NCBI GenBank assembly: GCA_015654695.1
Contig: JAATGJ010000156.1
Coordinates: forward strand, 1 to 64,000
Direction of reading: 5' to 3'
DNA: 64,000 nt
Origin: Chitinophagales bacterium
GTDB lineage: Bacteria > Bacteroidota > Bacteroidia > Chitinophagales > Chitinophagaceae
This document shows, piece after piece, positions 21,947 to 63,015 of this stretch; the stretch's first letter is position 1; the number at the start of each line of letters is the position of its first letter. The translations under genes were made by a program, and so were the position numbers. The notes under the pieces are model-generated. The model did not search any database, was not told the origin of the DNA, and was given only the letters and a program-made list of their open reading frames with translations.

Positions 21947-22083
21947 ATGCAATCGAATTTTTAGTTGGGGCAAAGGTAATGGATAAATAAAAAGGAGGCA
22001 ATTCGATTATAGGTGCATCATTTAAGTTACTAAGGCTACCGTTCACTCAAAATAAATATTCATAGATCCTCGCCTGTCATAAA

Positions 22084-22133: not shown

Positions 22134-22474
22134 ATTAGTGACATGAAAGGAATATTCGACTAGAAAAAACCAAAAACAAAGCAACCTTGTATTATTTCAT
22201 GGCGGCAACAAAACAGATATTACCAATGAAGGTATAAGCATGCTGCCATGGAATGAAATTGAAAAGTTTTAGAAAAAGTGACCGGGAACATTTTTACAAT
22301 CGAATTTTTAGTTGATGCATAGAAGAAAGTTCAAAGTTTGTAATATGTATTTTTTTGTATCGGGCTATGTCAATCTGATCGCTTTCTGGCTACGTCTTAC
22401 TCATTTACGCCTTTATCTCTTTTAAATACAAAAGAATCATCAAATAACTATACATTGAGTATAAAATCAGCAGC

Positions 22475-22885
22475 GTGAAAAAAATACCTACCGCTATTAT
22501 AGCTTTAATACTGATCTCTCAAACTGCATTTGGCCAGAAAGATTCAACAAATAAGAAACCAGATAACCAAGTCAGACAATATTGGTTCGTTATGCTAACA
22601 GCAGGAAATAACCGTTCGCAAGATTCTGCCACTGCCGCCAAAATACAGGAAGGCCACATGGCTAATATCACTAAGCTGTATTACGAAGGCAAATTAAAAG
22701 TCGCCGGTCCGTTTGGAGACGACGGCAAATGGAGAGGTATATTTATTTTTGATTGCAAGACAAAAGAGGAAGTGGAAAATTTATTAAAGACTGATCCCGC
22801 TGTTTTATCAGGAAGACTGGCTTATGAAATTCATTCATGGTGGACAGCGGCAACGGGTAGCTTTGCGCCGGGAAAACCGAAATAA
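22475..22885 (+). CDS. secreted YciI-like family protein
   Basis: 136 aa with a GTG start and a signal peptide. The GPF..DG.WRGIFIFD...DPAV...YEIHSWW pattern resembles the YciI-like (Dabb) fold. Confidence 0.55.
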   Translation: MKKIPTAIIALILISQTAFGQKDSTNKKPDNQVRQYWFVMLTAGNNRSQDSATAAKIQEGHMANITKLYYEGKLKVAGPFGDDGKWRGIFIFDCKTKEEVENLLKTDPAVLSGRLAYEIHSWWTAATGSFAPGKPK

Positions 22886-22945
22886 AAATTAAAAGTTGCA
22901 TCCGGAAAATATTCTACTTTTATAGCCCATTTTAAAAAGTAACTT

Positions 22946-23203
22946 ATGTTAAGTGTACCAGATGCAGCAAATAAAGCTGTTGAATATCTAAGAAGCCTAT
23001 ATTCTGCGGCTGACAATATTCTTCTTGAAGAAGTTGAATCTTCGGAAGATAATAAATACTGGAATATTACTTTAAGTTATCAGATATTTGAAAAAAATAT
23101 TCTTGGCGGTTGGGCTGTACCACAAAAAAAGTTAAAAGTTTTTAAAATTGATTCGAAAACCGGCACTGTAGTATCAATGAAAATCAGAGAAATCAATGTT
23201 TGA
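22946..23203 (+). CDS. small alpha/beta protein with PepSY-like pattern; upstream partner of PIN-like gene
   Basis: 85 aa. EEVESSEDNKYWNITLSY...KVFKIDSKTGTVVSMKIRE resembles a PepSY-type beta-hairpin fold. Its last 8 nt overlap the next gene (ATGTTTGA). Confidence 0.5.
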   Translation: MLSVPDAANKAVEYLRSLYSAADNILLEEVESSEDNKYWNITLSYQIFEKNILGGWAVPQKKLKVFKIDSKTGTVVSMKIREINV

Positions 23204-23705
23204 TTCAGATATAACTGTGCCTACCGAAATAAGGAATAAAGCAATTATTGTTGACTCTAATCTTTTATTATTGTTTCTGATTGGCCTGTTTGACAAAAGG
23301 TCAATTACATCGTTTTCCGAACGCCTTTCCCGCTACAGCATCGAAGATTATGACTATTTGATAACGCTTGTGAAAGATAAAATCATAGTGATAACACCAA
23401 ACATTATTACCGAAATATCCAGCCTTTCAGGAAAATTCAAGAGGCGTAAAGAGTTTTTCGAATTTTTAGGAAATTATATCCCCTCTCTGAATGAGCTGTA
23501 TGTTCAATCTTCCTCCGTAGTCATTAAAAATACTTTTGTCAAGTTTGGAATAACCGACGCCACAATAATAGAATTATCAAAACAAGGCATTACAACTCTT
23601 ACAGACGATTTTGACCTGTTTTATTATCTTAGTAATCAAAGTTATTCAGCAATCAATTTTACTCAGCTCAGAAGCCCATATATACTTAAGAAGCAGAAGG
23701 AATAA
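23196..23705 (+). CDS. PIN-like domain protein (putative nuclease / toxin)
   Basis: 169 aa. Four acidic motif positions are arranged as in PIN domains: [10 protein letters not shown] near the N-terminus, a central Glu/Asp segment, [12 protein letters not shown], and C-terminal TLTDDFDLF. It lies in an AT-rich islet. Confidence 0.5.
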
Positions 23706-26668: not shown

Positions 26669-26985
26669 ATATCCAAACCTAAGTTAAAAAAATGTAACTT
26701 TTATTTTACGCTAAGAACATGGCCGTTTTTTTTATCCAATAAAAGAAGAACAAAAGTAAAAGGCATTATTGTAACAACCGCCACGCTTATCCAGTCTGCA
26801 AAAGCAGGAGAAAGAAAAACCACGACAACCACTGTAGCCTTTTCAATAAACCATAAATACAAATGAGATTAGGAAAATAAATAAACCATGCCGCCACAGC
26901 GAACTATTTATTTTATAAAAAACACCAAAGAAATGATAAATGGCGGCAAGGCCGGAGAATATTGTCAATACAATGAAAGCTGACC

Positions 26986-27363
26986 TCATATCAATTGTAG
27001 CTTGGCAACTTTAGGGTCAACTTCTACAGTATCATGTTCGAAATTTAGTTTGATGCGCCATTTTTGTAAAGTAGCAGCACCAATAATAGCTTCTTCGCTA
27101 AGAGCTGGAACTACAAGAAACTCATCACTGAGCAAAACATCATTGATATAAAAATCCAGCCTGACTGCATCTTTTACTTCAATAAAATGCCCTGCACTGG
27201 TGGTAGCAATCTTTCTTATCCTTCCTAAAGCCTGCTTATCTGCAATATCTTGAACAAAGTCGGGATGGATACATGACAAATTAGCTCCGCTGTCAAAAAG
27301 GGTATAAAGGTTCTTTTCTCCTTTTGAACCAACAAATAATAAAGGAATCTTAATAACAGACAT
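26986..27363 (-). CDS. single-domain retropepsin-like aspartic protease (paralog 2)
   Basis: 125 aa. LFDSGAN motif; about 50% identical to the 13574..13957 protein, including the C-terminal IIGAATLQKWRIKLNFEHDTV. Confidence 0.6.
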   Translation of the reverse strand: MSVIKIPLLFVGSKGEKNLYTLFDSGANLSCIHPDFVQDIADKQALGRIRKIATTSAGHFIEVKDAVRLDFYINDVLLSDEFLVVPALSEEAIIGAATLQKWRIKLNFEHDTVEVDPKVAKLQLI

Positions 27364-27414
27364 AACGGTAAGGTTTTACTAAAGGTATAAATTTATCCGC
27401 ACAAGCTTAGTCTT

Positions 27415-32094: not shown

Positions 32095-32961
32095 ATGATG
32101 CCTTACGAGCTTTCAAATACTCAAAGAAAATTTTTTGGTTTAACAGAAGTAGCAGGTTCCTGGGATAGAAAATTATTAAGTAAAAGCTTAACAGTTTATT
32201 TTAACAAGAATAAAATTGTAAAGATATTAAACTATAGCTATGCCTACCTGGAATACGATACCGATATTGACACTATAAACAGAGAAATACTCCTGCCGAA
32301 AACGACCAGAGGAAAAGAACAAAAACTTACTGTAGCCAGAGTTTCAAAAATAAAAGGTTCTGGAATGCAGTTTTCGGGCTCATTTGAAGGAGGAGGAATT
32401 TCAGTCTATAACAACAAGCGAAATATTTTTCTTACTAGAAGCTATTCAGAAGACGGACAAATATCCAATTATACGGATATAGAAAATTGGGTTAACAAAT
32501 ATATTATAGAAAGCCCGTCTGACTATTTTGAATGGCTGAATGAACAATTAAATAGAAAAAGAGAAAATAATAAAATAACGGCAGGAGATATAATTGCTTT
32601 TCCTGTTGGAAGATTCGAATATGGTTTTGCCAGAATAATAAAGACTGATTTTCTAAGTGAACATATTTTGCTTGATGGCGAAATTTTCAAATCCAACATT
32701 TTTGGAAAGCCGCTTATAATTATACCATACTCGATAATTTCAAAAACATGGGATATAAATTTTGATCAACTTATTAAACAACCAACACTAGGTCCAATAC
32801 AAATTAATGATTCATGTATTTTTTACGGTGAATTTCCGATCGTTTCGTTCAAAGAACTACATAACTCAGATATACCCAAAATCGAATTATCAAAAATTTC
32901 CAGATACTTAACAATACCATATAGCAAAACCGATATACTTCAAAGAAAAAACAAATGGTAA
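32095..32961 (+). CDS. hypothetical protein in an AT-rich islet (possibly an orphan immunity-like protein)
   Basis: 288 aa with no recognisable catalytic motif. Its composition is Asn/Lys/Ile-rich, and local GC is clearly below that of the neighbours. Confidence 0.45.
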   Translation: MMPYELSNTQRKFFGLTEVAGSWDRKLLSKSLTVYFNKNKIVKILNYSYAYLEYDTDIDTINREILLPKTTRGKEQKLTVARVSKIKGSGMQFSGSFEGGGISVYNNKRNIFLTRSYSEDGQISNYTDIENWVNKYIIESPSDYFEWLNEQLNRKRENNKITAGDIIAFPVGRFEYGFARIIKTDFLSEHILLDGEIFKSNIFGKPLIIIPYSIISKTWDINFDQLIKQPTLGPIQINDSCIFYGEFPIVSFKELHNSDIPKIELSKISRYLTIPYSKTDILQRKNKW

Positions 32962-43330: not shown

Positions 43331-45910
43331 ATGCACGATCAACCAGCGATCTTTTCCCTGCTGCAACAATATATTCCGGCCCTTAGTTCTTACAACGAAT
43401 TATTCTCTGCTGATAATACTATAAGGCCTGACTGGCAAACTTTTTTCGCTTCACTTCATCAATTAGGATATAAAGAATTACAAAACCGTAATATTGATAT
43501 ACAGCGGCTACTGAAAGAAAATGGTGTAGCCTATAATATTTATAATGACCCCTCCGGGCAAACACGTCCCTGGGAACTTGATCCCATACCTCAATTAATA
43601 ACAGCTAATGAATGGGAAACCATCAATGCAGGTTTGATACAGCGTGCAGAATTGTTTGATCTTTTATTGAAAGATATTTACGGTCCGCAAACACTTATAA
43701 AAAATGGCATCATTCCACAGGAACTGATTTACCTGCATCCCGGCTTTATCCGGTCATGTGTAAATGTCAAATTACCCGGAACACAGCACCTGGTTTTATA
43801 TGCAGCGGATATGGCCCGTGGCAATGATGGTCGTTTATGGATCATCAGTGACCGTACGCAGGCGCCATCAGGTTCGGGTTATGCGCTGGAAAACAGGTTT
43901 GCAATGTCAAGTGTATTACCTGAATTATTTTCCAACCTCAATGTAAAGAGGTTATCACCTTACTTTGATTCACTGCAACAGGCATTGACGGATATAGCGC
44001 CGCATAATACGGATAATCCAAGAGTGGTCATACTCACACCGGGTCCTGATAACGAAACGTATTTTGAACATTCTTATCTCGCCGCTTATCTCGGACTTAC
44101 ATTAGTGCAGGGCAATGACCTGATGGTAAAAGATAATTATGTATGGCTAAAGACTATTGATGGTTTGGAAAAAGTGGATGTGCTGTTACGCAGGCTGGAT
44201 GACAGCTATTGCGATCCGCTGGAATTAAAAAGCGATTCACTGTTAGGCATTCCGGGCCTGGTGCAGGTAGTGAGAAAAGGAAATGTAGCTATTGCCAACC
44301 CGCTTGGAAGCAGTATAGTAGAAAGTGCAGGCCTTGTTCCTTTTTTACCTGCTATTGCCAAACATTTCTTTGGAAAGGAACTGATCATGCCGACCATCGC
44401 CACATGGTGGTGCGGTCAGCCCAAAGAAATGAATTATGTAATCGCTAATTTAAAAACGCTGGTAGTAAGAAAGATATTCAGGAATGTGGCCGGCACCCGT
44501 TCTGCTATTGATGGCGCTTCGCTGTCAGTAATACAGGCAGAAGAGTTGATACGACAAATAAAAGCCAGTCCCTACCTGTATGTCGGGCAGGAAAAAATTA
44601 ATTTCTCCTCCACACCTTCATGGGTGGATGGAAAAATTGAAGCGGGTCATTCGTTGTTCAGGAGTTTCCTGGTCAGCCATAACAACAGTTATATTGCCAT
44701 GCCCGGCGGCCTGACACGAACCAATACACAGAAAAATAGCTTCATTATCTCCAATCAGCTTGGAGGTATCAGTAAAGACACCTGGGTTCTTTCAGCGGAT
44801 GATGAACAGGAGCAAACGGTAAACCTCCAATTGACTACCGATACATTGCAGCATACAATACATAAGCGGTCACTCCCAAGCCATACTGCGGAGAATCTCT
44901 TCTGGGTAGGCCGCTATACGGAACGGGTTATTTATAACGCCCGGCTGCAGCGTACCGTAATGCAAAAGATGTTGCAAAGCAACAAACCATTTACTGCTGA
45001 TAGCGGGGGCACAGAATCTGTATTGCTTCATACATTAACACAGTGTACTTATACTTTTTCCGGCTTCTTTGAAGACAGCGATCCTGCGAAAAGAAAAGAT
45101 ATCTACGCGAAGCCATGGACAGAGTTAACCGATGTTTTATACAATGAAAAAAGAAACGGCAGTCTTAGTCATAATCTTTCTTTGTTGAAAAACGCCGTCT
45201 ATAGCGTCCGTAATTTCTGGGCGCTGGATACCTGGCGTGTACTGCGGCAGATGGAAGAGGAATGGAATAAAGCGAAAAAGGATAATACTACCGATCATCT
45301 GCGGATGATCAGCAGTATTGATGCATTGAATACTTCAATGTTTGCCTTCCTTGGAATGAACAGGGAAAGTGTTCGCAGGGAACAGGGATGGAATATCATG
45401 GATCTTGGCAGGAAACTGGAACAGGTGCTGTACATCATTACTTTATTAAGAAGCGTTTTTCAAAACAAACAGGAAGACCAGGTGGAGCATGAGTTGCTGG
45501 AGTCCGTCATGATCGCCAGCCAGAGCCTGATTACTTACCGTTATACTTACCGCGACCATTTGCAATTACCATTGGCGCTCGAATTGCTGATGCTGGATAC
45601 CAACTACCCGAAGTCACTGGCTTATTTAGTGAAAAAAATAAAACGCTATGTTTCGCTTTTGCCCAAGGAAGGAAAAGAAATACCGTTAAGCGATAAGCAA
45701 CGCAATATCCAGGAGGCTGACTCTTTATTAAAACTGGCGGATGTAGTAGCATTGGCAAAACATGACCCGTACACCGGGGAGTATGTTTCCCTGAATAAGT
45801 TTTTGGATAAATTATACTCGCTGATCGCCGATACTTCGATGGGTATCTCCAAAACGTATTTTAAACACAGCCAGACACAAAAACAATTATTTACAGCTAA
45901 CCTTATCTGA
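43331..45910 (+). CDS. circularly permuted type-2 ATP-grasp (DUF404/DUF407) fused to alpha-E domain (DUF403)
   Basis: 859 aa. The N-terminal roughly 480 aa carry CP ATP-grasp motifs, and the C-terminal roughly 330 aa form an alpha-helical alpha-E domain. This is the same architecture as the mycobacterial Rv2567-type fusion. Confidence 0.85.
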   Translation: MHDQPAIFSLLQQYIPALSSYNELFSADNTIRPDWQTFFASLHQLGYKELQNRNIDIQRLLKENGVAYNIYNDPSGQTRPWELDPIPQLITANEWETINAGLIQRAELFDLLLKDIYGPQTLIKNGIIPQELIYLHPGFIRSCVNVKLPGTQHLVLYAADMARGNDGRLWIISDRTQAPSGSGYALENRFAMSSVLPELFSNLNVKRLSPYFDSLQQALTDIAPHNTDNPRVVILTPGPDNETYFEHSYLAAYLGLTLVQGNDLMVKDNYVWLKTIDGLEKVDVLLRRLDDSYCDPLELKSDSLLGIPGLVQVVRKGNVAIANPLGSSIVESAGLVPFLPAIAKHFFGKELIMPTIATWWCGQPKEMNYVIANLKTLVVRKIFRNVAGTRSAIDGASLSVIQAEELIRQIKASPYLYVGQEKINFSSTPSWVDGKIEAGHSLFRSFLVSHNNSYIAMPGGLTRTNTQKNSFIISNQLGGISKDTWVLSADDEQEQTVNLQLTTDTLQHTIHKRSLPSHTAENLFWVGRYTERVIYNARLQRTVMQKMLQSNKPFTADSGGTESVLLHTLTQCTYTFSGFFEDSDPAKRKDIYAKPWTELTDVLYNEKRNGSLSHNLSLLKNAVYSVRNFWALDTWRVLRQMEEEWNKAKKDNTTDHLRMISSIDALNTSMFAFLGMNRESVRREQGWNIMDLGRKLEQVLYIITLLRSVFQNKQEDQVEHELLESVMIASQSLITYRYTYRDHLQLPLALELLMLDTNYPKSLAYLVKKIKRYVSLLPKEGKEIPLSDKQRNIQEADSLLKLADVVALAKHDPYTGEYVSLNKFLDKLYSLIADTSMGISKTYFKHSQTQKQLFTANLI

Positions 45911-45925
45911 TTTGAACATTGCACC

Positions 45926-46804
45926 ATGCTTTATTCTGTTGAACATACTACCAAATACCAATACCACGAGCAGGTGAGCCTTTGCCATAACATCGCCGTA
46001 CTAGCGCCGCGCAATACCGATAAACAAACCTGTAAAGCATTTAATATTATTATTTCACCGTTGCCGGAAGTACTGGAAGAACATGTGGACTTCTTTGGCA
46101 ACAAATTGTATTATTTTGTTATTGAACAGGAGCATGAAGAATTAACTGTCATTGTCAGATCACAGGTGGAAAAAACAATATCTCCTGGTGCACCGGCATC
46201 CTACCCTGCACAAAGCTGGGAAATGGTAAGAGATATGCTACTCGTTTCTACCGGGGAGTATATGGAGGAAAAGCAATTCACCCATCCTACGGAAATAACG
46301 GCTACCTCTCCTGAAATAAAAAACTATGCTGAAAAATCTTTTACAAAAGACAGAGCATTGTTTGAAGCCGTATATGATCTGGTAAAACGTATTTACACAG
46401 ATTTCAGTTTTACACCCGGTTTTACTACCATCTCTACTCCCCTTTCTGTTGTGATGAAAGAACGGAAAGGCGTTTGCCAGGATTTTGCTCATCTTGCCAT
46501 TTCCTGTATTCATTCTATGGGCCTGCCGGCAAGATATGTAAGCGGTTACCTGGAAACATTAGCGCCTGCAGGAAAAGAAAAGCTTACCGGTGTTGATGCA
46601 TCTCATGCATGGATATCGGTATTCATTCCCGGAATGGGCTGGGTGGACTTTGATCCTACCAATAATCAACTGGCTAATGAACAATATATCACTATCGGCT
46701 GGGGCCGTGATTATTTTGACATCATTCCACTCAAAGGAGTGATCATGAGCAGCAGTTCGCATGAATTGACGGTATCGGTAGATGTGAAAAGGATAGAAGA
46801 ATAA
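45926..46804 (+). CDS. transglutaminase-like cysteine protease family protein (Bact_transglu_N + TGase core)
   Basis: 292 aa. Catalytic Cys region GVCQDFAHL, with His and Asp downstream. It lies 16 nt after the ATP-grasp gene. Confidence 0.85.
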   Translation: MLYSVEHTTKYQYHEQVSLCHNIAVLAPRNTDKQTCKAFNIIISPLPEVLEEHVDFFGNKLYYFVIEQEHEELTVIVRSQVEKTISPGAPASYPAQSWEMVRDMLLVSTGEYMEEKQFTHPTEITATSPEIKNYAEKSFTKDRALFEAVYDLVKRIYTDFSFTPGFTTISTPLSVVMKERKGVCQDFAHLAISCIHSMGLPARYVSGYLETLAPAGKEKLTGVDASHAWISVFIPGMGWVDFDPTNNQLANEQYITIGWGRDYFDIIPLKGVIMSSSSHELTVSVDVKRIEE

Positions 46805-46913: not shown

Positions 46914-47306
46914 CTATTTTTTATTTCTCACTTTTTCTTTTTCTGACATTTGCTTCATCCTGTATTTTACCATTTTGCTGATCAATGCCAGGGGAAGTGG
47001 CTTACCCAAGGGAAACTTGGCTGTGCTTTTTGCTCCTGCATAAGGTGCAAGTTCCTTTTTGAATCCTTCAACTCCAACCGGCGCCGGATAAAAAGCGATA
47101 TGGCTTTTCCACGCGGCAAAAGAAACCAGGTTTCCATTCAATGTAAAGGTGGGAATTGCATATTTGATCGTTTCTTCCGCTTTGGGCGCCGACTTCCTGA
47201 TGGTAGCTCTTAACAGTTCCAGCATCTTTTGAATGTCTTTGGGGAAGCCGGCAATATATTCATTGATAGTTGCCGCCGGTTTACTTTTCATCGCCTTTGC
47301 CATCAT
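46914..47306 (-). CDS. DUF1801 (YdhG-like) domain protein
   Basis: 130 aa with the conserved ...AIPTF..NG.LV.FAA.K.H..FYP pattern. Confidence 0.75.
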   Translation of the reverse strand: MMAKAMKSKPAATINEYIAGFPKDIQKMLELLRATIRKSAPKAEETIKYAIPTFTLNGNLVSFAAWKSHIAFYPAPVGVEGFKKELAPYAGAKSTAKFPLGKPLPLALISKMVKYRMKQMSEKEKVRNKK

Positions 47307-47408: not shown

Positions 47409-48491
47409 CTATTTTTTCTTCCGGATCGTTTCATGGATAAAAGTCAGCTTCTCCTTTACTGCTTCATTGATCACAAAGGGATAGGAATCTTTCATTCCCA
47501 TGGCACGGTTCAGGCTGTTCATCACGAAGGACAAAGGTATCCATCGCTCAAGGATGTCATCAATAGACTTAGCAGTATAAGGATCAATATTCAGCCGGGC
47601 ACTCATATCATTATCGGCATCGGCGGATCTTGGGTTTAGTGTCATACCAAATGAATAAGCGGTTTCCATTGTATCCACAATATGCATATAATGCGCCCAG
47701 GTCTCCGCCCAGTCTTCCCAGGGATGGGAACTGGCGTAAGCACTGATAAAACTCTCTTTCCATTCTTCTGACGCAGCTTTGCTGTAATGTTGTTTCAATG
47801 CTTCGGCATAATCGGTGGTTTCATCACCAAAAAGTTCCCGGAAGGGCTGTAGCCTTTTTGTATTATCTATCAACTGATCCCAGTAGTAATGCCCTATCTC
47901 GTGGCGAAAATGCCCCAATAGTGTTCGATACACTTCATCCATCTGGTTGCGGGCCATTTCACGGATAGCATCATCGGCTTCCGCTATATTGAGTGTGATC
48001 AGTCCATGATCATGGCCGGTCAGTAAACGTTTTTTCCCATCTTTATTTTCATCCGCCAGGAAATCGAAGGCAATTCCCTTGTTCTCATTCTCGGTTTTAC
48101 TGATGACAGGTAATTTGAAACGTAGCAAAGAATAAACGAGCCGGTGTTTGGCTATTTCAATGCGGGTCCATTTTTCCAGGTTATCCGGTTTGCTGAGATC
48201 AGGTATAGTGTGATTAAGCTCACAGGCAATACAAAATTCCGCTTCGCTGTCATGCGGGAGTAGCCAGTTGCATACATTGTATTGTTTATTGCTGCAGTAT
48301 TTATAGCGTGGCGTGGATGAAGTAATTTTTCCTTTGCTATCAAACAGGACATAACTATTGTCTTCCGCCGGTTGCAAGGCTACCAGGTCCATCCGCTGAG
48401 GATCAAAACCCAGGGAAGCATTGCATTGTACACAAAAGGTATTTTCAAAATAGACGGGCTGACCACAGTGGTCACATTTAAAAAGTTTCAT
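47409..48491 (-). CDS. zinc-ribbon-containing putative zinc metallopeptidase (HExxH)
   Basis: 360 aa. N-terminal CxxC..CxxC ribbon (CDHCGQ...CVQC) and an HEIGH zincin motif. Confidence 0.75.
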   Translation of the reverse strand: MKLFKCDHCGQPVYFENTFCVQCNASLGFDPQRMDLVALQPAEDNSYVLFDSKGKITSSTPRYKYCSNKQYNVCNWLLPHDSEAEFCIACELNHTIPDLSKPDNLEKWTRIEIAKHRLVYSLLRFKLPVISKTENENKGIAFDFLADENKDGKKRLLTGHDHGLITLNIAEADDAIREMARNQMDEVYRTLLGHFRHEIGHYYWDQLIDNTKRLQPFRELFGDETTDYAEALKQHYSKAASEEWKESFISAYASSHPWEDWAETWAHYMHIVDTMETAYSFGMTLNPRSADADNDMSARLNIDPYTAKSIDDILERWIPLSFVMNSLNRAMGMKDSYPFVINEAVKEKLTFIHETIRKKK

Positions 48492-48610
48492 TTGAGAAAT
48501 AGCTTGTTTGAAATTGTTTCTTGTTGCAAAGTAGTTAATTAATCAAGAAATGTGCCTGATAGGAAATGGCATGCGAATAATGTGAACTATGCCAAATGTA
48601 CTTCTAATAT

Positions 48611-48749
48611 CACCCTTTCGGGGTTAAGCCCCAGCTGGTTGCTACATATCTATAGTAATACCACCTCTTCGAGGTTTTAATCCTGAAAGGATGATATTAA
48701 TATAGTAAGTAAGTCATCAAAGATGTTGGGTTCCAAATCCCGAAGGGAT
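48611..48749. repeat. cluster of four short hairpins (5-bp stems, 3-5-nt loops)
   Basis: ACCCtttcgGGGT, ACCTCttcGAGGT, ATCCTgaaAGGAT and ATCCCgaaGGGAT, within about 140 bp. They sit between the zinc-peptidase gene start and the stop of the secreted 443-aa gene. Confidence 0.45.
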
Positions 48750-48807
48750 GGCATTGGATTTCTAAATGAATACTATTACAAATACACAAAGACCAGTAAA
48801 AAATAAC

Positions 48808-50139
48808 TTATTTAAAAAGAAAAGATAAATCTGTTAACGTATTATCTCTTTTAAAACAATATATATAAAGTCTATAAAAGGTTAAATCAGATTCTTTGCT
48901 CATGTCTTTTGTCAGGCCCACAATAGATACATCATTTACTAAATACTCAGACCCTGTTCTATTATCCTTAGTATTGTCGTACTTATACAACAACGATTTA
49001 GCCAATGATTGAACCTGTTTAAAATCAGAAACTTCATTTAGATAAAGCTTATAGGAAGTACTGTCGGTAAATTTTAAACTAACACCAAATAAAGTATCTT
49101 TAGAATCCTTATATGTATGAACGAAGAATGAAAGGCTATTAAATTTCATTGATCTTGATTCAGCTGTATCGGTTATTGTACGTGTCACAATTGTATCAGT
49201 ATTTGTACATTGACTTATGTCTATTTTGAAACAGGCTTTATCCAAGTCGGCAATTGGTATTTTACTATTTAATACGTAGTCATGAAAATTTTTAAATAAA
49301 GTTTCAAATGGATAATTAAACGTCCCATTGGCATTTGTTATCAAGAAATTATTTTTATTCCTAAAATAACTTACGAGATTGCTGTAGTTAGATATCAATG
49401 TATCCTGTAAGTCAATATCAGAAGAATACAGTATTAATGAATCCAACGCTTTAATTGCATCTGAATAATTGTATCTACGCTCTTCGAACGTAACCTTTAT
49501 AAGATACTTGTGATAAAAATTCAGCGGGTTTTTTACGTGGTTCAATCTATTTAGAACGCCATCATAGTTCTTTTCTTTTTCATACTTTTCAGTACTTGAA
49601 TATAAGTCTTCGAACTCTTCAGTAGCATCCAAATATTTTAAAGTTATATCATACCAATAGCTACTTTCTTCTGCAATGAATTCATTTACACCTTTATCCC
49701 CTCTAAGTACATCGAATATTCGATTGGCCTCTTTAACCTCATTCATATTCATTCTGAAAAGCCCTGTGAAAAAGAGTTTGTATTCGTAACCAAAATTGTC
49801 TACGATTCTGAAGTAGTTATATGAATCTTTTTTGTTTAGGTAAATAAATAATTTGCCATAGTCTGGTTTATAAGTGGCAGGCATTCTGGCATAGTAAGAG
49901 TTTGAAACTTTTAAATATGGATCTATCCAGCCCGGTTTTCCTGTGTAAGGGTTATAATTCCCTTTTGTTGAGTAGTTGTCAAACATGCTATTATTTGGCG
50001 TCGTTCTAAAATGGGGCTGAATATAAGTCCCATCATTTTTTAAATACCCATTAACGAAGACATCACTTTTCTGAGCAGATAAATTGTTAAGAAAAAAGCA
50101 GGTTATCAGTAAAAAAAAGGTTCTAAGCATTGCTGTCAT
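48808..50139 (-). CDS. secreted hypothetical protein (Asn/Tyr/Lys-rich, no recognisable domain)
   Basis: 443 aa with a Sec signal peptide. The coding sequence is strongly AT-rich relative to its neighbours. Confidence 0.6.
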   Translation of the reverse strand: MTAMLRTFFLLITCFFLNNLSAQKSDVFVNGYLKNDGTYIQPHFRTTPNNSMFDNYSTKGNYNPYTGKPGWIDPYLKVSNSYYARMPATYKPDYGKLFIYLNKKDSYNYFRIVDNFGYEYKLFFTGLFRMNMNEVKEANRIFDVLRGDKGVNEFIAEESSYWYDITLKYLDATEEFEDLYSSTEKYEKEKNYDGVLNRLNHVKNPLNFYHKYLIKVTFEERRYNYSDAIKALDSLILYSSDIDLQDTLISNYSNLVSYFRNKNNFLITNANGTFNYPFETLFKNFHDYVLNSKIPIADLDKACFKIDISQCTNTDTIVTRTITDTAESRSMKFNSLSFFVHTYKDSKDTLFGVSLKFTDSTSYKLYLNEVSDFKQVQSLAKSLLYKYDNTKDNRTGSEYLVNDVSIVGLTKDMSKESDLTFYRLYIYCFKRDNTLTDLSFLFK

Positions 50140-50293
50140 TTGAACGGGATTTTCTTATCCTGAAAATTATCAAGAAGGGCCTGTACACTTTTAATTACCT
50201 GCGCACCCCTAAGTTAATAAAGCCGAATACATTCACAATCCCCATATGAGATTCGTGGGCTATGAATTTGGCAATAATCTGATTTCTTTCCTT

Positions 50294-51226
50294 CTAAACA
50301 AATGATAAGTCATATTTCAAAAGAAGTCTATCATTTTTTTGAATAAATAGCAATTTGTTCATATCAACTATAGGCCTTACCCAAAGCCTATTTAATACTT
50401 TTTGCAATTCTTCTATGTCTTGATTCATTTGAAGTTCTCGAACAATAAAATCCCTATCAAAATTAGGTTGATTGCCTACAGAATTGCCTACTGTTCGCCA
50501 TTTTTTGTATTGCTGAATTTTTTCTTTTTTTGGTACATAACTTTTGCCATCGTGGGGAATGTAGGCAATTTGATAATTGTGAACTATCACATTTCTATAT
50601 TCTCTCACTAATCTTGAAATTCGCTTATATTCTTTCCAATCTGCAAATCCATGCAAATATTCATCAAGTATATTTTGCCTACTTGGCAATTTTATTGGAG
50701 GAGGTTTGCCTTTTGATAAATAATGTTCAAAAGCACTATCATAATATTTGTCATACCAGCCATCTGCAATTTTCAAAAAACCATCTTTAGTCAACTTTTG
50801 TAAAATGACTGTTTGCTGATTAGTGCATTCAAGAATAATAAAATATATTTTAGTCAAAAATTCCTCGACTGAATCACATACGCTCCCTAAATGAGTATAG
50901 AAGTTTTCAAAAAAAGAAATCTGTTTTTCTTCCAGTGCATTGTACGCATATAAGAAATTCAAAAAAATAGAGTAGTGGTAAGAACCAATCTCATGAAAAT
51001 CCGCTGACGTGTTTTCTCTGGGATCAATTTTAAGTTTGTCGTCATCATCAAATATTGAATTATCAAGCCTATTAGTAAAAGGGACGATAAAATTTTTCCA
51101 GAAGAACTCGCAATTTGGAAATGAGGTGGCTAAAATGTGTCCGAAGTTTTTCTCTTTAACATGTCCATGCTTTTTAAAGCTCGTATGAGATATTATTTCT
51201 TTGAGTTTAGATATTTCGATTTGCAT
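50294..51226 (-). CDS. hypothetical protein with HEPN-like Rx4H motif (candidate RNase)
   Basis: 310 aa and AT-rich. The C-terminal half is predicted all-helical and contains RLVREYRNVIVHN, that is R-N-x3-H, the hallmark spacing of HEPN active sites. Confidence 0.55.
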   Translation of the reverse strand: MQIEISKLKEIISHTSFKKHGHVKEKNFGHILATSFPNCEFFWKNFIVPFTNRLDNSIFDDDDKLKIDPRENTSADFHEIGSYHYSIFLNFLYAYNALEEKQISFFENFYTHLGSVCDSVEEFLTKIYFIILECTNQQTVILQKLTKDGFLKIADGWYDKYYDSAFEHYLSKGKPPPIKLPSRQNILDEYLHGFADWKEYKRISRLVREYRNVIVHNYQIAYIPHDGKSYVPKKEKIQQYKKWRTVGNSVGNQPNFDRDFIVRELQMNQDIEELQKVLNRLWVRPIVDMNKLLFIQKNDRLLLKYDLSFV

Positions 51227-51322
51227 ATAGTTTCATGTAATGAGTCGTAATAAAACTACTTTATATCATTAACACATCCAAATTAGACAGTCTAATAGGT
51301 TAGTAATATAAATAGTGGTATT

Positions 51323-51493
51323 GTGTTCCAGCGGAACACATCGTGGGTAAAAAAATCATACGGATATGAACGGCGGCGTTCCGTAGGAACGCATGGTGCT
51401 AATATTGAAAATGGATTGCACGAAACGTTCCGATGGAACGTTGGCTGGTTTCATTTGATACGGTTATACCCACGAGTTGTCCCGATGGGACAA
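51323..51493. repeat. ordered array of four GTTCC-N3-GGAAC hairpins about 50 bp apart, with an enclosing long-range stem; candidate structured ncRNA / leader
   Basis: GTGTTCCagcGGAACAC (51323-39), GCGTTCCgtaGGAACGC (51376-92), AACGTTCCgatGGAACGTT (51424-42) and TTGTCCCgatGGGACAA (51477-93). The flanking stem bases covary. CGTGGGTA (51343-50) pairs with TACCCACG (51468-75) and encloses hairpins 2 and 3. Confidence 0.5.
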
Positions 51494-51725
51494 GAGAAGA
51501 TTCCTATTATTGCTGAATAAAATAATAGCCATCGGATCACAGAACTCACATCCGGCAATTCGTGTTTTTCCAAATCTATCAGACACTTCGCAATGCGGAA
51601 TGGAATTATTGAACGTACAACTAAGCCCTTCGTTTCGCCCTGGGTAAATTTACAACAGGCGATGATCCTTAGATAAACTCAGAACAGTCCTACCGTTGGT
51701 AAAAAAATCCATTTATTCTTTCTAT

Positions 51726-54700
51726 TTAATCAACTCCCTTCTTCAACCGCAGATCCAGCGTACACGGAAATTCATTATTTATTTCCGGCGCCGGCGCATC
51801 ATACACAAAACTGCCACGGTTGTTTTCGATATAATGCTGCGTTACGGAGGATAGCACGGTTATAAAACGCGGTTCTTGTGTATGGCTGGTATTGCCAAAG
51901 CGGTTGATGCGGCGGCTTTCCGCTTCAAAACTGTTGATGGGGAACGTATCGTAACTTCTGCCGCCGGGGTGCGATACATAATACGTGCAACCACCAATGG
52001 AGCGGCCATTCCATGTATCTACAATATCAAAAGTGAGTGGCGTATCAACACCAATGGTGGGGTGCAATGCACTCGGCGGCTGCCAGGCCCGGTAACGGAT
52101 ACCGCAAACATATTCGCCTTTTACACTAGTGGCTGTAAGCGGAACGCGAACACCACCGCAGAGGAGAATATAGCGGTTGTCGTTGATACCGGATAGTTTT
52201 ACCTGCACCCTTTCTAAAGAACTGTCAACAAAACGTGCCGTGCCGGAGCTGCTCATTTCTTCGCCCAGTACATGCCAGGGCTCAATACCCATACGCAGTT
52301 CCATTTTAATATCTTTTACCGTAACCGAACCGTAATGCGGAAAACGAAATTCGAAAAATGGCTTGAACCAGTTGATGTCGAATGCATAACCGGCCATATT
52401 TAAATACTCTACCACATCAGCCATATCCTGCTGCACATAATGCGGCAGCAAATATTTATCGTACAGGCTGGTGCCCCAGCGTACCAGTTTATGCTTGTAT
52501 GGTTTTTTCCAGAATGTGGCTATCAATGCACGGATGAGCAACATTTGCAGCAAACTCATTTGCTTATGCGGTGGCATATCAAACGCCCGGAATTCTAAAA
52601 TGCCCAGCCTTCCTGCAGAAGAATCGGGAGAATATAATTTATCAATACATAATTCGGAGCGATGCGTATTACCCGTAATGTCAGTAAGCAAATGCCGGAA
52701 TATTCTGTCGGTAATCCAAAAAGGAATAAAGCCTTTTTCGGGCACCTGGCTAAAAGCAATTTCCATTTCATAAAGACGGTCTTCAAAACCTTCATCAAAA
52801 CGGGGGGCCTGGCTGGTAGGCCCGATAAAACTACCGGAAAACAAATACGATAAACCGGGATGGTGTTGCCAGAAAGTGATTAAACTCCGCAACAGATCAG
52901 GGCGGCGCAACAGCGGACTATCTGCCGGCTTTGCAGCACCAATGGTAATATGATTACCACCGCCAGTGCCGGTATGGCGTCCATCCAGCATAAACTTTTC
53001 GGTACCCAGTCGTGATAATCTTGCCTGTTCGTATAAAGTATCTGTATTGGCTAAAAGGTCCTTCCAGTTTTTTGCAGGGTGAATATTTACTTCTATCACG
53101 CCGGGGTCTGGTGATACTACCATACGTTCCACCCTGGTATCTCTTGGTGGTTCGTAGCCTTCGATACGCACCTGCATTTTTAATTTAGCTGCCGTGCTTT
53201 CGATACAGGCTACCATATCCAGGTAGTGTTCTATATAATCCATCGGCGGCAGAAAAATATAAATATGGCCATCCCGTACTTCCACACTTAATGCCATGCG
53301 GATGGTTTCAATCTCCCTGGTAATTTCTTCAGGCGGTTCTTTTTCTTTAGCCTTCTTTTTTTCAGCAGTTGCATTTCTCTTCTCGAACTTTTCTTTATTC
53401 TCCCCTGCTAATTTTGTTATCGGTTCTGTGTTTTTAAATACTTTTCCATAGCGCCACAATATCGCTTTATGAAAATCTTCCAGCTCAGGCAGCTCTTCAA
53501 ACAAACTGCGTTCTACTTTATACGGTATCCTGGCTTTGGGCACCACCGGCAACGAGTCCAACGGTAAGCGTAACCCTATGGGAGAATTACCGGGAACTAA
53601 AAAAAGATGCTCCCGGTTAAAGACCCATTTACAGCTCAACCATTTATCATCCCAGTAATTCCAGCGAAGTGGTATTACATAGCCCACAGGTTCATCCAGC
53701 CCCTGGTTAAGCAGCTGTGCTAACGTACGCCGCTCCAATGGGTCTTTTAAATTTGCTTTTAACGGATCAACATTGGCTGGATTTTTTCCTTCGGTCCATA
53801 AAAAATAAAATACATCTTCGTAAGCCGTGCTTATATTATCCAGGCTAACCGCTAAATGCCTGGCCAGTTCGTTAGTAAATGCTTTGGCATCTTTTATAGT
53901 GTATTTCTTTTTGGTTTTTTCGTGGGCGATCAGATCAAGGTTTTTCCAAACGGGAAAACCATCTTTCCGCCAGAACAAACCGTATTGCCATCTTGGTAAT
54001 GGTTCACCGGGATACCATTTACCCTGCCCGTAATGGATCAATCCACCGGGACCAAATTTATCTCTTAAGCGGAAAATAAGATCATGTGATAATTCTCTTT
54101 TTTCTTTTCCATCGGCAGCGGTATTCCATTGCGCCGATTCCATATCATCAATAGAAACAAAAGTAGGCTCTCCACCCATCGTCATGCGTACATCACCTGT
54201 TGCTAAATCTTCGTCCACCTGTTCGCCAATTGCATTTATTTCTATCCATTGCTGTTCGGTAAAGGGTTTGGTTACTCTTGGGTCTTCATAAATTCTTGTC
54301 ACCGAATTTTCAAATTCAAAAGTCACTTCGCACTTATCAGTAGCCCCCACTACTGGCGCGGCACTTGCATAATCGGGTGTACATGCCAGTGGTATATGTC
54401 CTTCGCCGGCAAATAAACCGGAAGTGGCATCTAAACCAATCCAGCCTGCGCCGGGAATATATACTTCTACCCAGGCATGCAAATCGGTAAAATCTTTTTC
54501 AGGGCCCGAGGGTCCATCCAATGATTTTTCATCAGAAGTTAACTGCACCAAATAACCGGATACGAAACGGGATGCCAACCCTAAATGCCGCAATACCTGT
54601 ACAAAAAGCCAGGCTGTATCCCTGCAGGAGCCCAGTGTTTTTTCCAGCGTTTCCTCAGGAGTTTGTACCCCCACTTCCATGCGGATGGAATAATTAATAT

Positions 54701-55163
54701 CCTTATTTATTTTTTGATTGAGGTACACCAAAAAATCATTGATCGTTTTTTTGCTCCTGTCAACACCCTTTAACCATTCCATTAGCCGGGGGCCGCTTTC
54801 TTTTATTTCCAGGTAAGGGATTAATTCTTTGGGTAATTCGCCACGATATTTAAAAGGGAAATTTTCGGCATATTCTTCTACAAAAAAATCAAAAGGATTG
54901 ATGCTGACTAAATTGGCAATTACTTCTACTTCTACTTTTAGCTGCGTAGTTCTTTCTGGAAATACGACACGGGCCTGGTAATTACCAAACGGGTCCTGCT
55001 GCCAGTTGATAAAATGATCTTTGGGTTCCACCTTAAAAGAATACGATTCAATGGGAGTTCGGGAATGCACGGCAGGACGAAGCCGGAAGACATGCGGGGA
55101 TAAAGCCACTAATCGGTCGTAAGTATAAACTGTCTTATGCCGGATCGCTACCCTTATAGCCAT
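51726..55163 (-). CDS. DUF2126 family large transglutaminase-like protein
   Basis: 1145 aa. It has an N-terminal Bact_transglu_N region, a TGase core and a long DUF2126 C-terminal region, the architecture of mycobacterial Rv2566. Confidence 0.85.
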   Translation of the reverse strand: MAIRVAIRHKTVYTYDRLVALSPHVFRLRPAVHSRTPIESYSFKVEPKDHFINWQQDPFGNYQARVVFPERTTQLKVEVEVIANLVSINPFDFFVEEYAENFPFKYRGELPKELIPYLEIKESGPRLMEWLKGVDRSKKTINDFLVYLNQKINKDINYSIRMEVGVQTPEETLEKTLGSCRDTAWLFVQVLRHLGLASRFVSGYLVQLTSDEKSLDGPSGPEKDFTDLHAWVEVYIPGAGWIGLDATSGLFAGEGHIPLACTPDYASAAPVVGATDKCEVTFEFENSVTRIYEDPRVTKPFTEQQWIEINAIGEQVDEDLATGDVRMTMGGEPTFVSIDDMESAQWNTAADGKEKRELSHDLIFRLRDKFGPGGLIHYGQGKWYPGEPLPRWQYGLFWRKDGFPVWKNLDLIAHEKTKKKYTIKDAKAFTNELARHLAVSLDNISTAYEDVFYFLWTEGKNPANVDPLKANLKDPLERRTLAQLLNQGLDEPVGYVIPLRWNYWDDKWLSCKWVFNREHLFLVPGNSPIGLRLPLDSLPVVPKARIPYKVERSLFEELPELEDFHKAILWRYGKVFKNTEPITKLAGENKEKFEKRNATAEKKKAKEKEPPEEITREIETIRMALSVEVRDGHIYIFLPPMDYIEHYLDMVACIESTAAKLKMQVRIEGYEPPRDTRVERMVVSPDPGVIEVNIHPAKNWKDLLANTDTLYEQARLSRLGTEKFMLDGRHTGTGGGNHITIGAAKPADSPLLRRPDLLRSLITFWQHHPGLSYLFSGSFIGPTSQAPRFDEGFEDRLYEMEIAFSQVPEKGFIPFWITDRIFRHLLTDITGNTHRSELCIDKLYSPDSSAGRLGILEFRAFDMPPHKQMSLLQMLLIRALIATFWKKPYKHKLVRWGTSLYDKYLLPHYVQQDMADVVEYLNMAGYAFDINWFKPFFEFRFPHYGSVTVKDIKMELRMGIEPWHVLGEEMSSSGTARFVDSSLERVQVKLSGINDNRYILLCGGVRVPLTATSVKGEYVCGIRYRAWQPPSALHPTIGVDTPLTFDIVDTWNGRSIGGCTYYVSHPGGRSYDTFPINSFEAESRRINRFGNTSHTQEPRFITVLSSVTQHYIENNRGSFVYDAPAPEINNEFPCTLDLRLKKGVD

Positions 55164-62622: not shown

Positions 62623-63015
62623 TTATTGTTTCGACTTCATTTTTAATTCATCTTTTAAAATGAGTTTTTTTAAAATAGCACCGAAAATGTTTTCTAACTC
62701 AAACGCTTCCTGAATCAGTTCCTGTCTCTCTTTTTCAAGTACAGTATTACCATTAATAAGAACATGTTTTAGCCAAAGTTTGCATTCCTTTGATTCCTTT
62801 CTGCAAACTTTGATCCTGTACTTTAAATCGCCATCCCCGAGATTTTCATTTGCTTCAATGTAATTTGCTGCTACTGACCCGGCTGCTCTCACTAATTGCC
62901 TGATGTATTCACTATTAATTACATCCTTTTTAAGATTCAGACAAAGATCTCTGACCCGTAAAGAAAATTTTTCTGTTCGTTCAAGCAAGTCATATATTTT
63001 CTTTTGCTCTTCCAT
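62623..63015 (-). CDS. four-helix-bundle protein (23S rRNA intervening-sequence protein family)
   Basis: 130 aa. The AAGSVAANYIEANE...GDGDLKYRIKVCRKESKECKLWL pattern is typical of the TIGR02436-like family. Confidence 0.8.
   Translation of the reverse strand: MEEQKKIYDLLERTEKFSLRVRDLCLNLKKDVINSEYIRQLVRAAGSVAANYIEANENLGDGDLKYRIKVCRKESKECKLWLKHVLINGNTVLEKERQELIQEAFELENIFGAILKKLILKDELKMKSKQ

What the first reader, a model, noticed from the sequence alone, without database searches (positions are those of the whole stretch)
48492..51725. AT-rich 3.2 kb islet (HEPN-like protein plus secreted protein) bracketed by hairpin clusters and wedged into a conserved ATP-grasp/transglutaminase cluster
The CP-ATP-grasp/alpha-E fusion, the small transglutaminase, the zinc peptidase and DUF2126 usually lie close together. 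Here the zinc peptidase and DUF2126 are separated by two strongly AT-rich genes of no recognisable family (310 aa and 443 aa, both minus strand). Short-hairpin clusters lie at both borders (48611-48749 and 51323-51493). The cargo, composition shift and bracketing structured repeats suggest a horizontally acquired mini-island, possibly a defence or abortive-infection-like module of a type not matched to any described system.
Basis: partly seen in the sequence, partly recalled or inferred. Interest (0 to 1): 0.7.

Follow-up and report, generated by a model that had tools for sequence, protein, structure and literature searches.

The report
Foreign HEPN-gene islet in variable hotspot
A 3.2-kb piece of foreign, AT-rich DNA has been inserted between two normally adjacent genes; it carries a predicted RNA-cutting (HEPN-type) protein from a large unstudied family and an exported repeat protein, which is the usual look of a small bacterial conflict/defence islet and not a new kind of system.

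Summary
Window 48562-51725 is a lineage-specific, AT-rich insert (both genes GC 0.31 against 0.417±0.029, z=-3.7). It lies between DUF2126 and the Peptidase_Mx gene. These two genes are adjacent in the nearest long-contig relative (366-bp spacer), and the closest relative carries a different AT-rich cargo (a DUF4420 nuclease) at the same junction, so the site is a variable hotspot.

The 443-aa protein is exported: signal peptide, a short module common in small prophage proteins, a TPR-like region and an α/β domain.

The pair is unique to this genome. However, p443 relatives in at least 5 clusters are translationally coupled to an unrelated R-N-x3-H protein.

The right-hand hairpin cluster is a real, rare 172-bp dyad element and the left one is weaker. 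Neither is a demonstrable recombination site.

Verdict: an ordinary acquired conflict islet containing a new HEPN-superfamily family. A defence function is plausible but untested.

The parts
48562..51725 (.). Variable, AT-rich inserted segment (about 3.16 kb). The equivalent spacer is 366 bp in L014.
   Evidence: blastn homology to L014 and L001 stops at about 48561 and at the DUF2126 stop codon; GC profile.
50294..51226 (-). p310: stand-alone HEPN-superfamily-like protein, a predicted metal-independent RNase. It belongs to a large family with no curated model.
50579..50596 (-). Codons for R211-N-V-I-V-H216, the invariant Rx4H (HEPN) motif of p310.
   Evidence: Translation gives RNVIVH. R211, N212 and H216 are invariant in 74 sequences. 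The motif ends helix 195-216.
50864..50866 (-). Codon for E121, the invariant acidic residue in the helix preceding the insert (HEPN helix-2 position).
   Evidence: criterion taken from PMC3710099.
48808..50139 (-). p443: exported protein. Signal peptide (residues 1-22), conserved prophage-type N-module (about 25-75), TPR-like helical repeats (72-300), C-terminal α/β domain (315-431).
49915..50139 (-). Signal peptide plus the 'GYxKxDGTYxQPHFR…DNYSTKGNYNPYTGKPGWIDPY' module of p443.
   Evidence: Translation; 142 IMG/VR stretches match only this part; carriers are mostly secreted proteins of about 99 aa.
51322..51493 (.). 172-bp dyad-symmetric element with four short hairpins. Three share the GTTCC-N3-GGAAC core, spaced about 52 bp apart. 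Outer 29-nt arms are 51324-51352 and 51464-51492.
   Evidence: The 499-nt spacer folds with z=-2.9.
48605..48749 (.). Left structured region: a 95-bp dyad (23-nt arms 48605-48627 and 48677-48699, 87% complementary) plus a 5-bp hairpin at 48737-48749.
   Evidence: RNA fold z=-2.0.
48492..48561 (-). Conserved upstream region of the peptidase gene (shared with L014 and L001). It marks the proximal junction.
47409..48491 (-). Flank: Zn-ribbon + Peptidase_Mx gene.
   Evidence: Pfam 3.7e-108.
51726..55163 (-). Flank: transglutaminase + DUF2126 gene.
   Evidence: Pfam E=0.

Best explanation
Window 48562-51725 is foreign DNA gained by this lineage at a variable intergenic junction between the DUF2126 gene and the Peptidase_Mx gene. 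This is shown by synteny and composition.

Its first gene, p310, is a stand-alone member of the HEPN superfamily. By inference, two copies dimerise so that their R211-N212-x3-H216 motifs, helped by E121, form a metal-independent RNase site. The ribonuclease is held inactive by the protein's own extra helices and N-terminal region. When triggered, for example by phage infection or another intragenomic conflict, it cleaves cellular or invader RNA, as the solo HEPN effectors AbiD/AbiF and ApeA do.

The second gene, p443, is an exported TPR-like binding protein built on an N-terminal module otherwise found in small prophage-encoded secreted proteins. It is most likely independent mobile cargo that landed, or travelled, next to p310. 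Cooperation between the two is possible (about one chance in three).

The two hairpin-rich dyad elements are non-coding structures inside the insert. They most plausibly act as a transcript leader, terminator or insulator, or are relics of small palindromic elements. They are probably not the insertion machinery.
For: Insertion and hotspot:
- L014 has DUF2126 and the peptidase adjacent, with a 366-bp spacer. L027, L028 and L055 have gaps of 72-96 bp.
- Homology breaks fall at the same junction in L014 and L001.
- L001 carries a DUF4420 PD-(D/E)XK gene there (Pfam 6e-52; GC 0.33 against 0.43).
- None of 80 related loci has p310 or p443.

Foreign composition:
- z=-3.7 for both genes.
- p310 homologs are AT-richer than their flanks in 35 of 36 loci, and p443 homologs in 8 of 8.

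Mobility of the families:
- p310 homologs lie directly downstream of tyrosine recombinases in L085/L086, L087 (an archaeon) and L106, and near integrase-NERD modules in L081.
- A p443 homolog lies downstream of an integrase in L242; others sit beside Bro-N, portal-fragment or ICE-like genes.

HEPN assignment:
- R211, N212 and H216 are invariant in 74 sequences of 39-58% identity.
- The motif ends helix 195-216 and is followed by a loop; E121 is invariant in helix 105-134; a helical insert spans 147-190. These are the positions defined in PMC3710099.
- Faint HEPN_Cthe2314, Swt1 and Apea hits appear in a few family members.

Solo status: no conserved neighbour across 71 loci apart from synteny within one subclade.

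p443 export and fold.
Against: - Motif placement was judged from secondary structure, not from a 3D superposition.
- There is no PADLOC hit, no homolog on sequenced plasmids, cultured phages or IMG/VR contigs, and no clear defence-island context in most loci.
- A high-GC subclade keeps the gene in fixed synteny with housekeeping genes (CoA-ligase, RDD, DAHP synthase). A non-conflict cellular role is therefore possible.
- No integrase, tRNA or direct repeats explain how the insert arrived.
- RNase activity, toxicity and phage protection are all untested.
Confidence: 0.6

Rival explanations
1. p310 and p443 form one functional two-gene module: a cytoplasmic HEPN RNase working with an exported TPR-like partner (sensor, anchor or regulator). 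The HEPN component has been swapped between unrelated HEPN families during evolution.
For: - p443 homologs P0126, P0127, P0137, P0131 and P0140 share contigs with members of an unrelated family of about 205 aa. That family has an invariant R96-N-S-F-A-H101 and sub-threshold RiboL-PSP-HEPN hits (7 of 22 members). The stop and start codons overlap by 4 bp.
- In the window, p443 again follows an R-N-x3-H protein on the same strand. There is no TAnnTTTG promoter motif in the 154-bp gap.
- HEPN with Sel1/TPR partners has precedent: AbiU2 and LA2681 in PMC3710099.
- An identical p310+p443 pair is on an independent Logan contig.
Against: - 70 of 71 p310-homolog loci lack p443.
- p443 homologs in L084, L155/156, L240/241 and L242 have no HEPN-like upstream gene.
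- p443 has a cleavable signal peptide and the HEPN proteins do not, so direct contact is topologically awkward.
- p310 and HEPN-205 are not detectably homologous (hhalign probability 0.1%).
- The sample of independent contexts is small (about 7).
Confidence: 0.3
2. p310 is not a conflict or defence gene. It is a cellular RNA-processing or regulatory HEPN-fold protein (or a catalytically irrelevant helical protein) that happens to be patchily distributed, and the islet has no immune role.
For: A high-GC subclade (L127-L149) keeps the gene between CoA-ligase, RDD and DAHP-synthase genes in 12-13 loci. There are no PADLOC hits, no antitoxin-like partner, and no phage or plasmid carriage. Several HEPN families have housekeeping roles (Las1, Swt1, MtlR; PMC3710099).
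Against: Strict invariance of R-N-x3-H and E121 argues for a catalytic site. The family is AT-richer than its host in 35 of 36 loci, is patchy across bacteria and archaea, and is repeatedly integrase-adjacent. Here it sits in a hotspot whose alternative cargo is a restriction-type nuclease family.
Confidence: 0.15
3. The segment is ancestral to the cluster and was deleted in the relatives, instead of being inserted in this lineage.
For: Only a few close relatives were available (L014, L001, L027), at 52-80% aa identity. No insertion scars (direct repeats, integrase) are visible.
Against: The composition is strongly foreign. The closest homologs of both genes are only 58-63% identical and lie in unrelated contexts. 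More distant genomes (L027, L028, L055) also have the two flanking genes 72-96 bp apart. L001 has a different cargo at the same junction.
Confidence: 0.05
4. The hairpin clusters are the ends or footprints of the mobile unit (MITE-like or REP-like elements, or recombination sites) and define how the islet was inserted.
For: Both lie inside the variable segment near its two ends. Each has terminal inverted arms enclosing smaller hairpins, a MITE-like design. The right one is statistically exceptional. A Logan assembly contig breaks inside the right element.
Against: The two elements share no sequence. There are no flanking direct repeats. No other copy exists in the 64-kb window or in 2.7 Mb of fetched loci. 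Homologs of p310 and p443 elsewhere do not carry such hairpins. There is no transposase or integrase.
Confidence: 0.15

Closest known systems
Solo HEPN abortive-infection/defence effectors (AbiD/AbiF = Pfam Abi_2; ApeA; AbiU2; AbiJ C-terminal HEPN)
   Same: A single cytoplasmic protein of about 300 aa with one Rx4-6H motif (polar residue after R), no antitoxin gene, patchy distribution, located in accessory regions. The predicted mechanism is a metal-independent RNase activated on infection.
   Different: No profile match to Abi_2, HEPN_Apea, HEPN_AbiU2 or any PADLOC model. The family has its own conserved N-terminal region (G21, E25, E40, W43, R53, R70) and a β-hairpin after the motif. No phenotype is known.
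HEPN + TPR/Sel1 gene pairs (AbiU2 with a Sel1-repeat gene; LA2681 HEPN fused to or in an operon with TPR; PMC3710099 Table 1)
   Same: A HEPN-type gene is followed by a gene for a TPR-like repeat protein. In a sister clade of p443 the two genes overlap by 4 bp.
   Different: p443 is exported and carries a prophage-type N-module plus an extra α/β domain. The pairing with p310 is unique to this genome. No Pfam TPR or Sel1 model matches.
HEPN-MNT (HepT/MntA) type II/VII toxin-antitoxin modules
   Same: A HEPN fold with an Rx4H catalytic motif; structural neighbours 5yep_B and 7ae2_A.
   Different: There is no nucleotidyltransferase (MNT) partner next to p310 here or in 71 homolog loci. p310 is more than twice the size of HepT.
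Defence or variable-gene 'hotspots' between conserved core genes
   Same: The same junction holds three states in related genomes: empty, a DUF4420 nuclease, and p310+p443. The cargo is AT-rich in both filled states, and there are no mobility genes inside.
   Different: Only three genomes could be compared. The cargo genes are not recognised defence genes in PADLOC.
Type III toxin-antitoxin loci (ToxIN-like): RNA repeat array upstream of an RNase gene
   Same: An array of four structured units lies directly upstream of a putative RNase gene.
   Different: The units are not direct sequence repeats (TRF finds none). Only the palindromic stems recur. The array is absent upstream of 52 homologs. 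ToxN-type toxins are not HEPN proteins.

Membership tests
HEPN superfamily (as defined in PMC3710099) | Conserved Rx4-6H motif with a polar residue (N/D/H) right after R | tested here: met
   R211, N212 and H216 are invariant in 74 family members of 39-58% identity; the codons translate to RNVIVH.
HEPN superfamily (as defined in PMC3710099) | [quoted passage not shown] | tested here: met
   In the AF2 model (pLDDT 91.6) helix 195-216 ends with the motif, and a loop and β-hairpin (223-232) follow. Helices 147-171 and 183-190 form the insert after helix 105-134. This was judged from secondary structure only; no 3D superposition was inspected.
HEPN superfamily (as defined in PMC3710099) | Conserved acidic residue in helix-2 | tested here: met
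   E121 is invariant and D118 nearly invariant within helix 105-134.
HEPN superfamily (as defined in PMC3710099) | Four-helix up-down core superposable on solved HEPN domains | tested here: inconclusive
HEPN superfamily (as defined in PMC3710099) | Sequence-profile match to a curated HEPN family | tested here: not met
   The best hits are HEPN_Cthe2314 E=0.065 (2 of 74 members), HEPN_Swt1 0.15 and HEPN_Apea 0.078, all below threshold. The PDB profile search found nothing.
HEPN superfamily (as defined in PMC3710099) | Metal-independent RNase activity giving 2',3'-cyclic phosphate ends | not testable with these tools
   Requires biochemistry.
Known anti-phage defence systems (PADLOC-DB v2.0.0) | HMM match of a component protein | tested here: not met
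   No hit at E≤1 for p310 or p443. No hit for HEPN-205 or for the DUF4420 protein of L001.
HEPN-MNT toxin-antitoxin | Adjacent minimal nucleotidyltransferase (MNT) gene | tested here: not met
   Neighbours here are p443 and a 499-bp non-coding spacer. No recurrent neighbour family was found in 71 loci.
Type III toxin-antitoxin (ToxIN-like) | Tandem direct repeats encoding antitoxin RNA upstream of the toxin, conserved with the toxin family | tested here: not met
   TRF finds no tandem repeat. Upstream hairpins are absent in 52 homolog loci.
Integron gene cassette | IntI integrase nearby and attC sites flanking the cassettes | tested here: not met
   There is no integrase in 64 kb. The dyad elements have nested short hairpins and lack the R''-L''/L'-R' attC design. 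attC covariance models were not run.
Integrative genomic island | Foreign composition and an empty site in relatives | tested here: met
Integrative genomic island | Integrase, tRNA target and flanking direct repeats | tested here: not met
   No tRNA, no integrase, and no direct repeats linking the two borders.
TPR/Sel1-like repeat proteins (for p443) | Stacked helix-turn-helix repeats superposable on TPR structures; sequence match to TPR/Sel1 models | tested here: inconclusive
MITE/REP-type repeated palindromic elements (for the hairpin clusters) | Terminal inverted arms | tested here: met
   29-nt arms 79% complementary (right) and 23-nt arms 87% complementary (left).
MITE/REP-type repeated palindromic elements (for the hairpin clusters) | Many copies per genome | tested here: inconclusive
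   No second copy in the 64-kb window or in 2.7 Mb of other loci. The rest of the source genome was not available.

The most novel reading that the evidence does not exclude
HEPN→p443 is a previously unrecognised two-component conflict system. An exported TPR-like protein, built on a module borrowed from prophage secreted proteins, monitors the cell envelope (for example phage adsorption or injection) and is genetically coupled to interchangeable, unrelated cytoplasmic HEPN RNases (p310 here, HEPN-205 elsewhere). The 172-bp four-hairpin element acts as an RNA leader controlling the RNase gene.
Probability: 0.1. Interest if true: 0.7.

Novelty: new member of a known kind. Interest (0 to 1): 0.35.

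Why it matters
If p310 is an active RNase, it adds a large family to the HEPN conflict/defence repertoire. The family has 838 clusters at 50% identity across bacteria and archaea, and no curated model exists for it. It would be a single-gene candidate that is easy to test.

The junction between the DUF2126 gene and the peptidase gene is a small natural example of a variable hotspot, with three cargo states and no mobility genes.

The repeated placement of the p443 family behind unrelated R-N-x3-H genes is a testable hint of a HEPN + exported-partner module.

Apart from that hint, the locus fits the familiar pattern of AT-rich accessory islets. It does not open a new category.

Tried and rejected
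1. Curated libraries (Pfam, NCBIfam, PADLOC, PHROGs) on both proteins, on 74 family members and on 10 distant members: nothing significant.
2. PDB sequence profile and Foldseek-PDB for p310: nothing. AFDB Foldseek was unavailable.
3. Tyrosine recombinase as an obligate partner of p310: rejected. It is adjacent in only about 5 of 39 loci.
4. p310 and HEPN-205 as remote homologs: rejected by hhalign (probability 0.1%).
5. Hairpin array as a ToxI-like antitoxin or a conserved leader of the family: rejected. There is no tandem repeat and it is absent upstream of 52 homologs.
6. Hairpin array as a known RNA: no Rfam match.
7. Hairpin pair pattern in IMG/VR: 43 hits, but the three inspected (including the two multi-match arrays) are Gly/Ser/Thr- or Glu/Pro/Val-rich coding repeats, so the lead was dropped as irrelevant.
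8. Hairpin clusters as a genome-wide intergenic feature: not seen in the other 22 intergenic stretches of the window.
9. Direct repeats, att sites, tRNA or integrase at the borders: none.
10. p310 on plasmids, cultured phages or IMG/VR: none.
11. Remnants of p310 or p443 in the empty site of L014: none.
Full report
**Observation**

The window's GC content drops from about 0.42 to 0.29-0.33 between 48500 and 51250. The two minus-strand ORFs there, 50294-51226 (310 aa, 'p310') and 48808-50139 (443 aa, 'p443'), have GC 0.310 and 0.308. The other 51 ORFs of the window average 0.417±0.029, so both are at z=-3.7, with GC3 z of -2.8 and -2.2.

- CP_ATPgrasp_2 + Alpha-E, 43331-45910
- transglutaminase, 45926-46804
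- Zn-ribbon + Peptidase_Mx, 47409-48491
- transglutaminase + DUF2126, 51726-55163

**Insertion and hotspot**

A scan of species-representative genomes with the peptidase returned 80 loci. I mapped all cluster genes and both islet proteins onto them.
- In L014, a Chitinophagaceae MAG with 75-80% aa identity across the cluster, DUF2126 is followed directly by the peptidase.
- In L027, L028 and L055 the two genes are 72-96 bp apart.
- No locus contains a p310 or p443 relative.

Nucleotide homology between the window and both L014 and L001 stops at about 48561, roughly 70 bp upstream of the peptidase ATG. On the other side it stops at the DUF2126 stop codon. The variable segment is therefore 48562-51725 (3.16 kb), against 366 bp in L014.

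The closest relative, L001 (Ginsengibacter MAG, 77%), has a different gene at this junction: a 326-aa DUF4420 PD-(D/E)XK-family protein (Pfam 6.2e-52). It is also AT-rich (0.33 against 0.43).

So one junction has three states: empty, DUF4420, and p310+p443. That is a variable hotspot, and the direction of change here is gain. The window contains no tRNA, no Rfam element, no integrase and no direct repeats linking the borders. The mechanism of insertion is not visible.

**p310**

p310 matches no model in Pfam, NCBIfam, PADLOC or PHROGs. It is not an orphan:
- The word-indexed search found more than 150 clusters at 38-58% identity. These include Niastella caeni, other Bacteroidota, an unclassified bacterium and a Methanocellales archaeon.
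- An exhaustive profile search found 838 representative clusters at E≤1e-3 and 183 at ≤1e-30. Most full-length members are proteins of about 300-380 aa aligned end to end.

In an alignment of 74 members, the invariant residues include R211, N212 and H216 (REYRNVIVHN) and E121.

The AlphaFold model is confident (pLDDT 91.6, pTM 0.87) and mostly helical. The R-N-x3-H motif closes helix 195-216 and is followed by a loop and a β-hairpin. E121 lies in helix 105-134. Helices 147-190 lie between them.

These are the positions that define the HEPN domain in the reference analysis (PMC3710099):
- the Rx4-6H motif at the end of helix-3
- a polar residue after the R
- a conserved acidic residue in helix-2

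Against this, Foldseek-PDB finds nothing. The only Pfam traces are sub-threshold: HEPN_Cthe2314, Swt1 and Apea, E 0.065-0.15. I put HEPN-superfamily membership at about 0.75. RNase activity is inferred.

**Behaviour of the p310 family**

- Homologs are AT-richer than their flanks in 35 of 36 loci, across hosts with 30-66% GC.
- They stand alone. Clustering of flanking ORFs in 71 loci found no recurrent partner.
- In L085/L086, L087 (an archaeon) and L106 the gene lies just downstream of a tyrosine recombinase. In Niastella caeni it lies near duplicated integrase-NERD-HEAT modules. This is only about 5 of 39 informative loci.
- One distant, high-GC subclade keeps the gene in fixed synteny with CoA-ligase, RDD and DAHP-synthase genes.
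- There are no relatives on sequenced plasmids, cultured phages or IMG/VR contigs.

This is the profile of a chromosomal accessory or conflict gene. It does not prove a defence role.

**p443**

The family is small (27 clusters) and Chitinophagaceae-centred. Every full-length member begins with a typical signal peptide, here MTAMLRTFFLLITCFFLNNLSA|QK.

Only the first 75 or so residues match PHROG phrog_29674 and 142 IMG/VR stretches. There the module makes up small secreted proteins with a median length of 99 aa.

Contexts of p443 homologs are accessory or mobile:
- ICE-like genes (L084)
- a RelB-type toxin-antitoxin pair (L155)
- Bro-N genes (L157)
- a portal fragment and an HTH gene (L088)
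- an amidase and a contractile-injection cluster (L240)
- an integrase directly upstream (L242)

.

**Are the two genes a module?**

The p310+p443 pairing occurs only in this genome and in an identical Logan contig.

There is, however, a suggestive pattern. In L157/L158 and L088 the p443 homolog is preceded, with a 4-bp overlap, by a protein of about 205 aa. Its family of 29 clusters has an invariant R96-N-S-F-A-H101, and 7 of 22 members give sub-threshold RiboL-PSP-HEPN hits. Matching contig lengths and adjacent locus tags show this pairing in at least five p443 clusters.

This 'HEPN-205' family is not detectably related to p310 (hhalign probability 0.1%). So p443 sits behind two unrelated R-N-x3-H proteins.

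HEPN genes partnered with Sel1/TPR genes are on record: AbiU2 and LA2681 (PMC3710099).

Four other p443 contexts lack any such gene. p443 is exported while the HEPN proteins are not. I give a functional link about 0.3.

**Hairpin clusters**

The right cluster is real.
- Four hairpins with 7-8-bp stems and 3-nt loops lie at 51322, 51376, 51424 and 51477.
- Three have the same GTTCC/GGAAC core, which occurs nowhere else in 64 kb (0.02 expected).
- They make up 5 of the 11 intergenic hairpins of the window.
- Clusters of four or more such hairpins occur only twice in 2.7 Mb.
- The outer hairpins are part of 29-nt complementary arms, so the whole is a 172-bp dyad element.
- The spacer folds better than shuffled controls (z=-2.9).

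The left cluster is weaker, with 5-bp stems. It includes a 95-bp dyad with 23-nt arms (z=-2.0).

The two elements share no sequence. They have no other copy in the window or in the fetched loci. They match no Rfam family. They do not accompany p310 or p443 homologs elsewhere.

A TAnnTTTG promoter-like motif at 51578-51571 would place the right element in a p310 leader. A second motif at 48600-48593 lies just downstream of the left element, ahead of the peptidase gene. These are weak consensus matches. The function of both elements remains unexplained.

**Comparison and verdict**

The locus works like the small accessory or defence islets that occupy hotspots between core genes. p310 looks like the solo HEPN effectors (AbiD/AbiF, ApeA), but it is not a member of any curated HEPN family or described defence system.

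Two claims are not supported: that the two genes form a defined new module, and that the hairpins bracket it in a mechanistic sense.

I classify it as a new family-level member of a known kind, of moderate interest (0.35). The one more novel possibility is a HEPN + exported-TPR two-component system with interchangeable RNases (about 0.1).

Noticed in passing
window 46914-47306 (-): A DUF1801 gene of normal composition (GC 0.43) sits between the transglutaminase and peptidase genes. It is absent at that position in L014 and L001, where the two genes are 15-47 bp apart. This is a second indel within the same conserved cluster.
   Followed up: partly
window 32095-32958 (+): Another strongly AT-rich single gene (GC 0.31, z=-3.6) encodes a 288-aa protein with an Imm26 polymorphic-toxin immunity domain (Pfam 2.2e-08). 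It is probably another acquired conflict gene.
   Followed up: partly
window 62626-63015 (-): An AT-rich (GC 0.336) 130-aa gene of the 23S_rRNA_IVP four-helix-bundle family (Pfam 1.1e-08). This is a family often seen in accessory or defence contexts.
   Followed up: no
window 21974-23702 and 26669-27414: Further AT-rich stretches: intergenic DNA at GC 0.30-0.32, a 169-aa ORF at 23196-23702 with GC 0.337 and no Pfam hit, and a 125-aa ORF at 26989-27363 with GC3 0.27.
   Followed up: no
L001:79-1059 (+): In the closest relative (Ginsengibacter MAG), the junction upstream of the peptidase holds an AT-rich DUF4420 PD-(D/E)XK-family gene in place of p310+p443. The contig ends just upstream, so the rest of that cargo is unseen.
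   Followed up: partly
L157:5384-6004, L088:5384-5995 (and P0148-P0176): An uncharacterised family of about 205 aa with invariant R-N-S-F-A-H and faint RiboL-PSP-HEPN similarity. It is translationally coupled (4-bp overlap) to p443 homologs in at least 5 clusters, and some members appear on contigs without a listed p443 homolog.
   Followed up: partly
L160-L239 (IMG/VR contigs): The signal peptide + 'GYxRKDGTYVxPHYRSxPN…DNYSTxGNxNPYTGKxG' module forms stand-alone secreted proteins (median 99 aa) in more than 80 viral or prophage contigs. It corresponds to phrog_29674, whose function is unknown.
   Followed up: partly
L081:265-7003 (Niastella caeni): A three-gene unit (tyrosine integrase, NERD-domain protein, HEAT-like protein) is tandemly duplicated upstream of the p310 homolog, with a group II intron maturase fragment between the copies.
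   Followed up: no
L127-L149: A high-GC subclade of the p310 family (33-38% identity) keeps a fixed neighbourhood (CoA-ligase on the opposite strand upstream, then RDD-family and DAHP-synthase genes downstream). This suggests long vertical residence in that lineage.
   Followed up: partly
L240:2746-7628: A p443 homolog lies next to an Amidase_2 gene and a contractile-injection-system cluster (sheath, gp19-like tube, CIS_tube).
   Followed up: no
L154 (Logan contig SRR10968228_294304): An independent short assembly carrying identical p310+p443 ends at window position ~51348, inside the four-hairpin element. This could reflect a repeat or a structure that breaks assembly.
   Followed up: no
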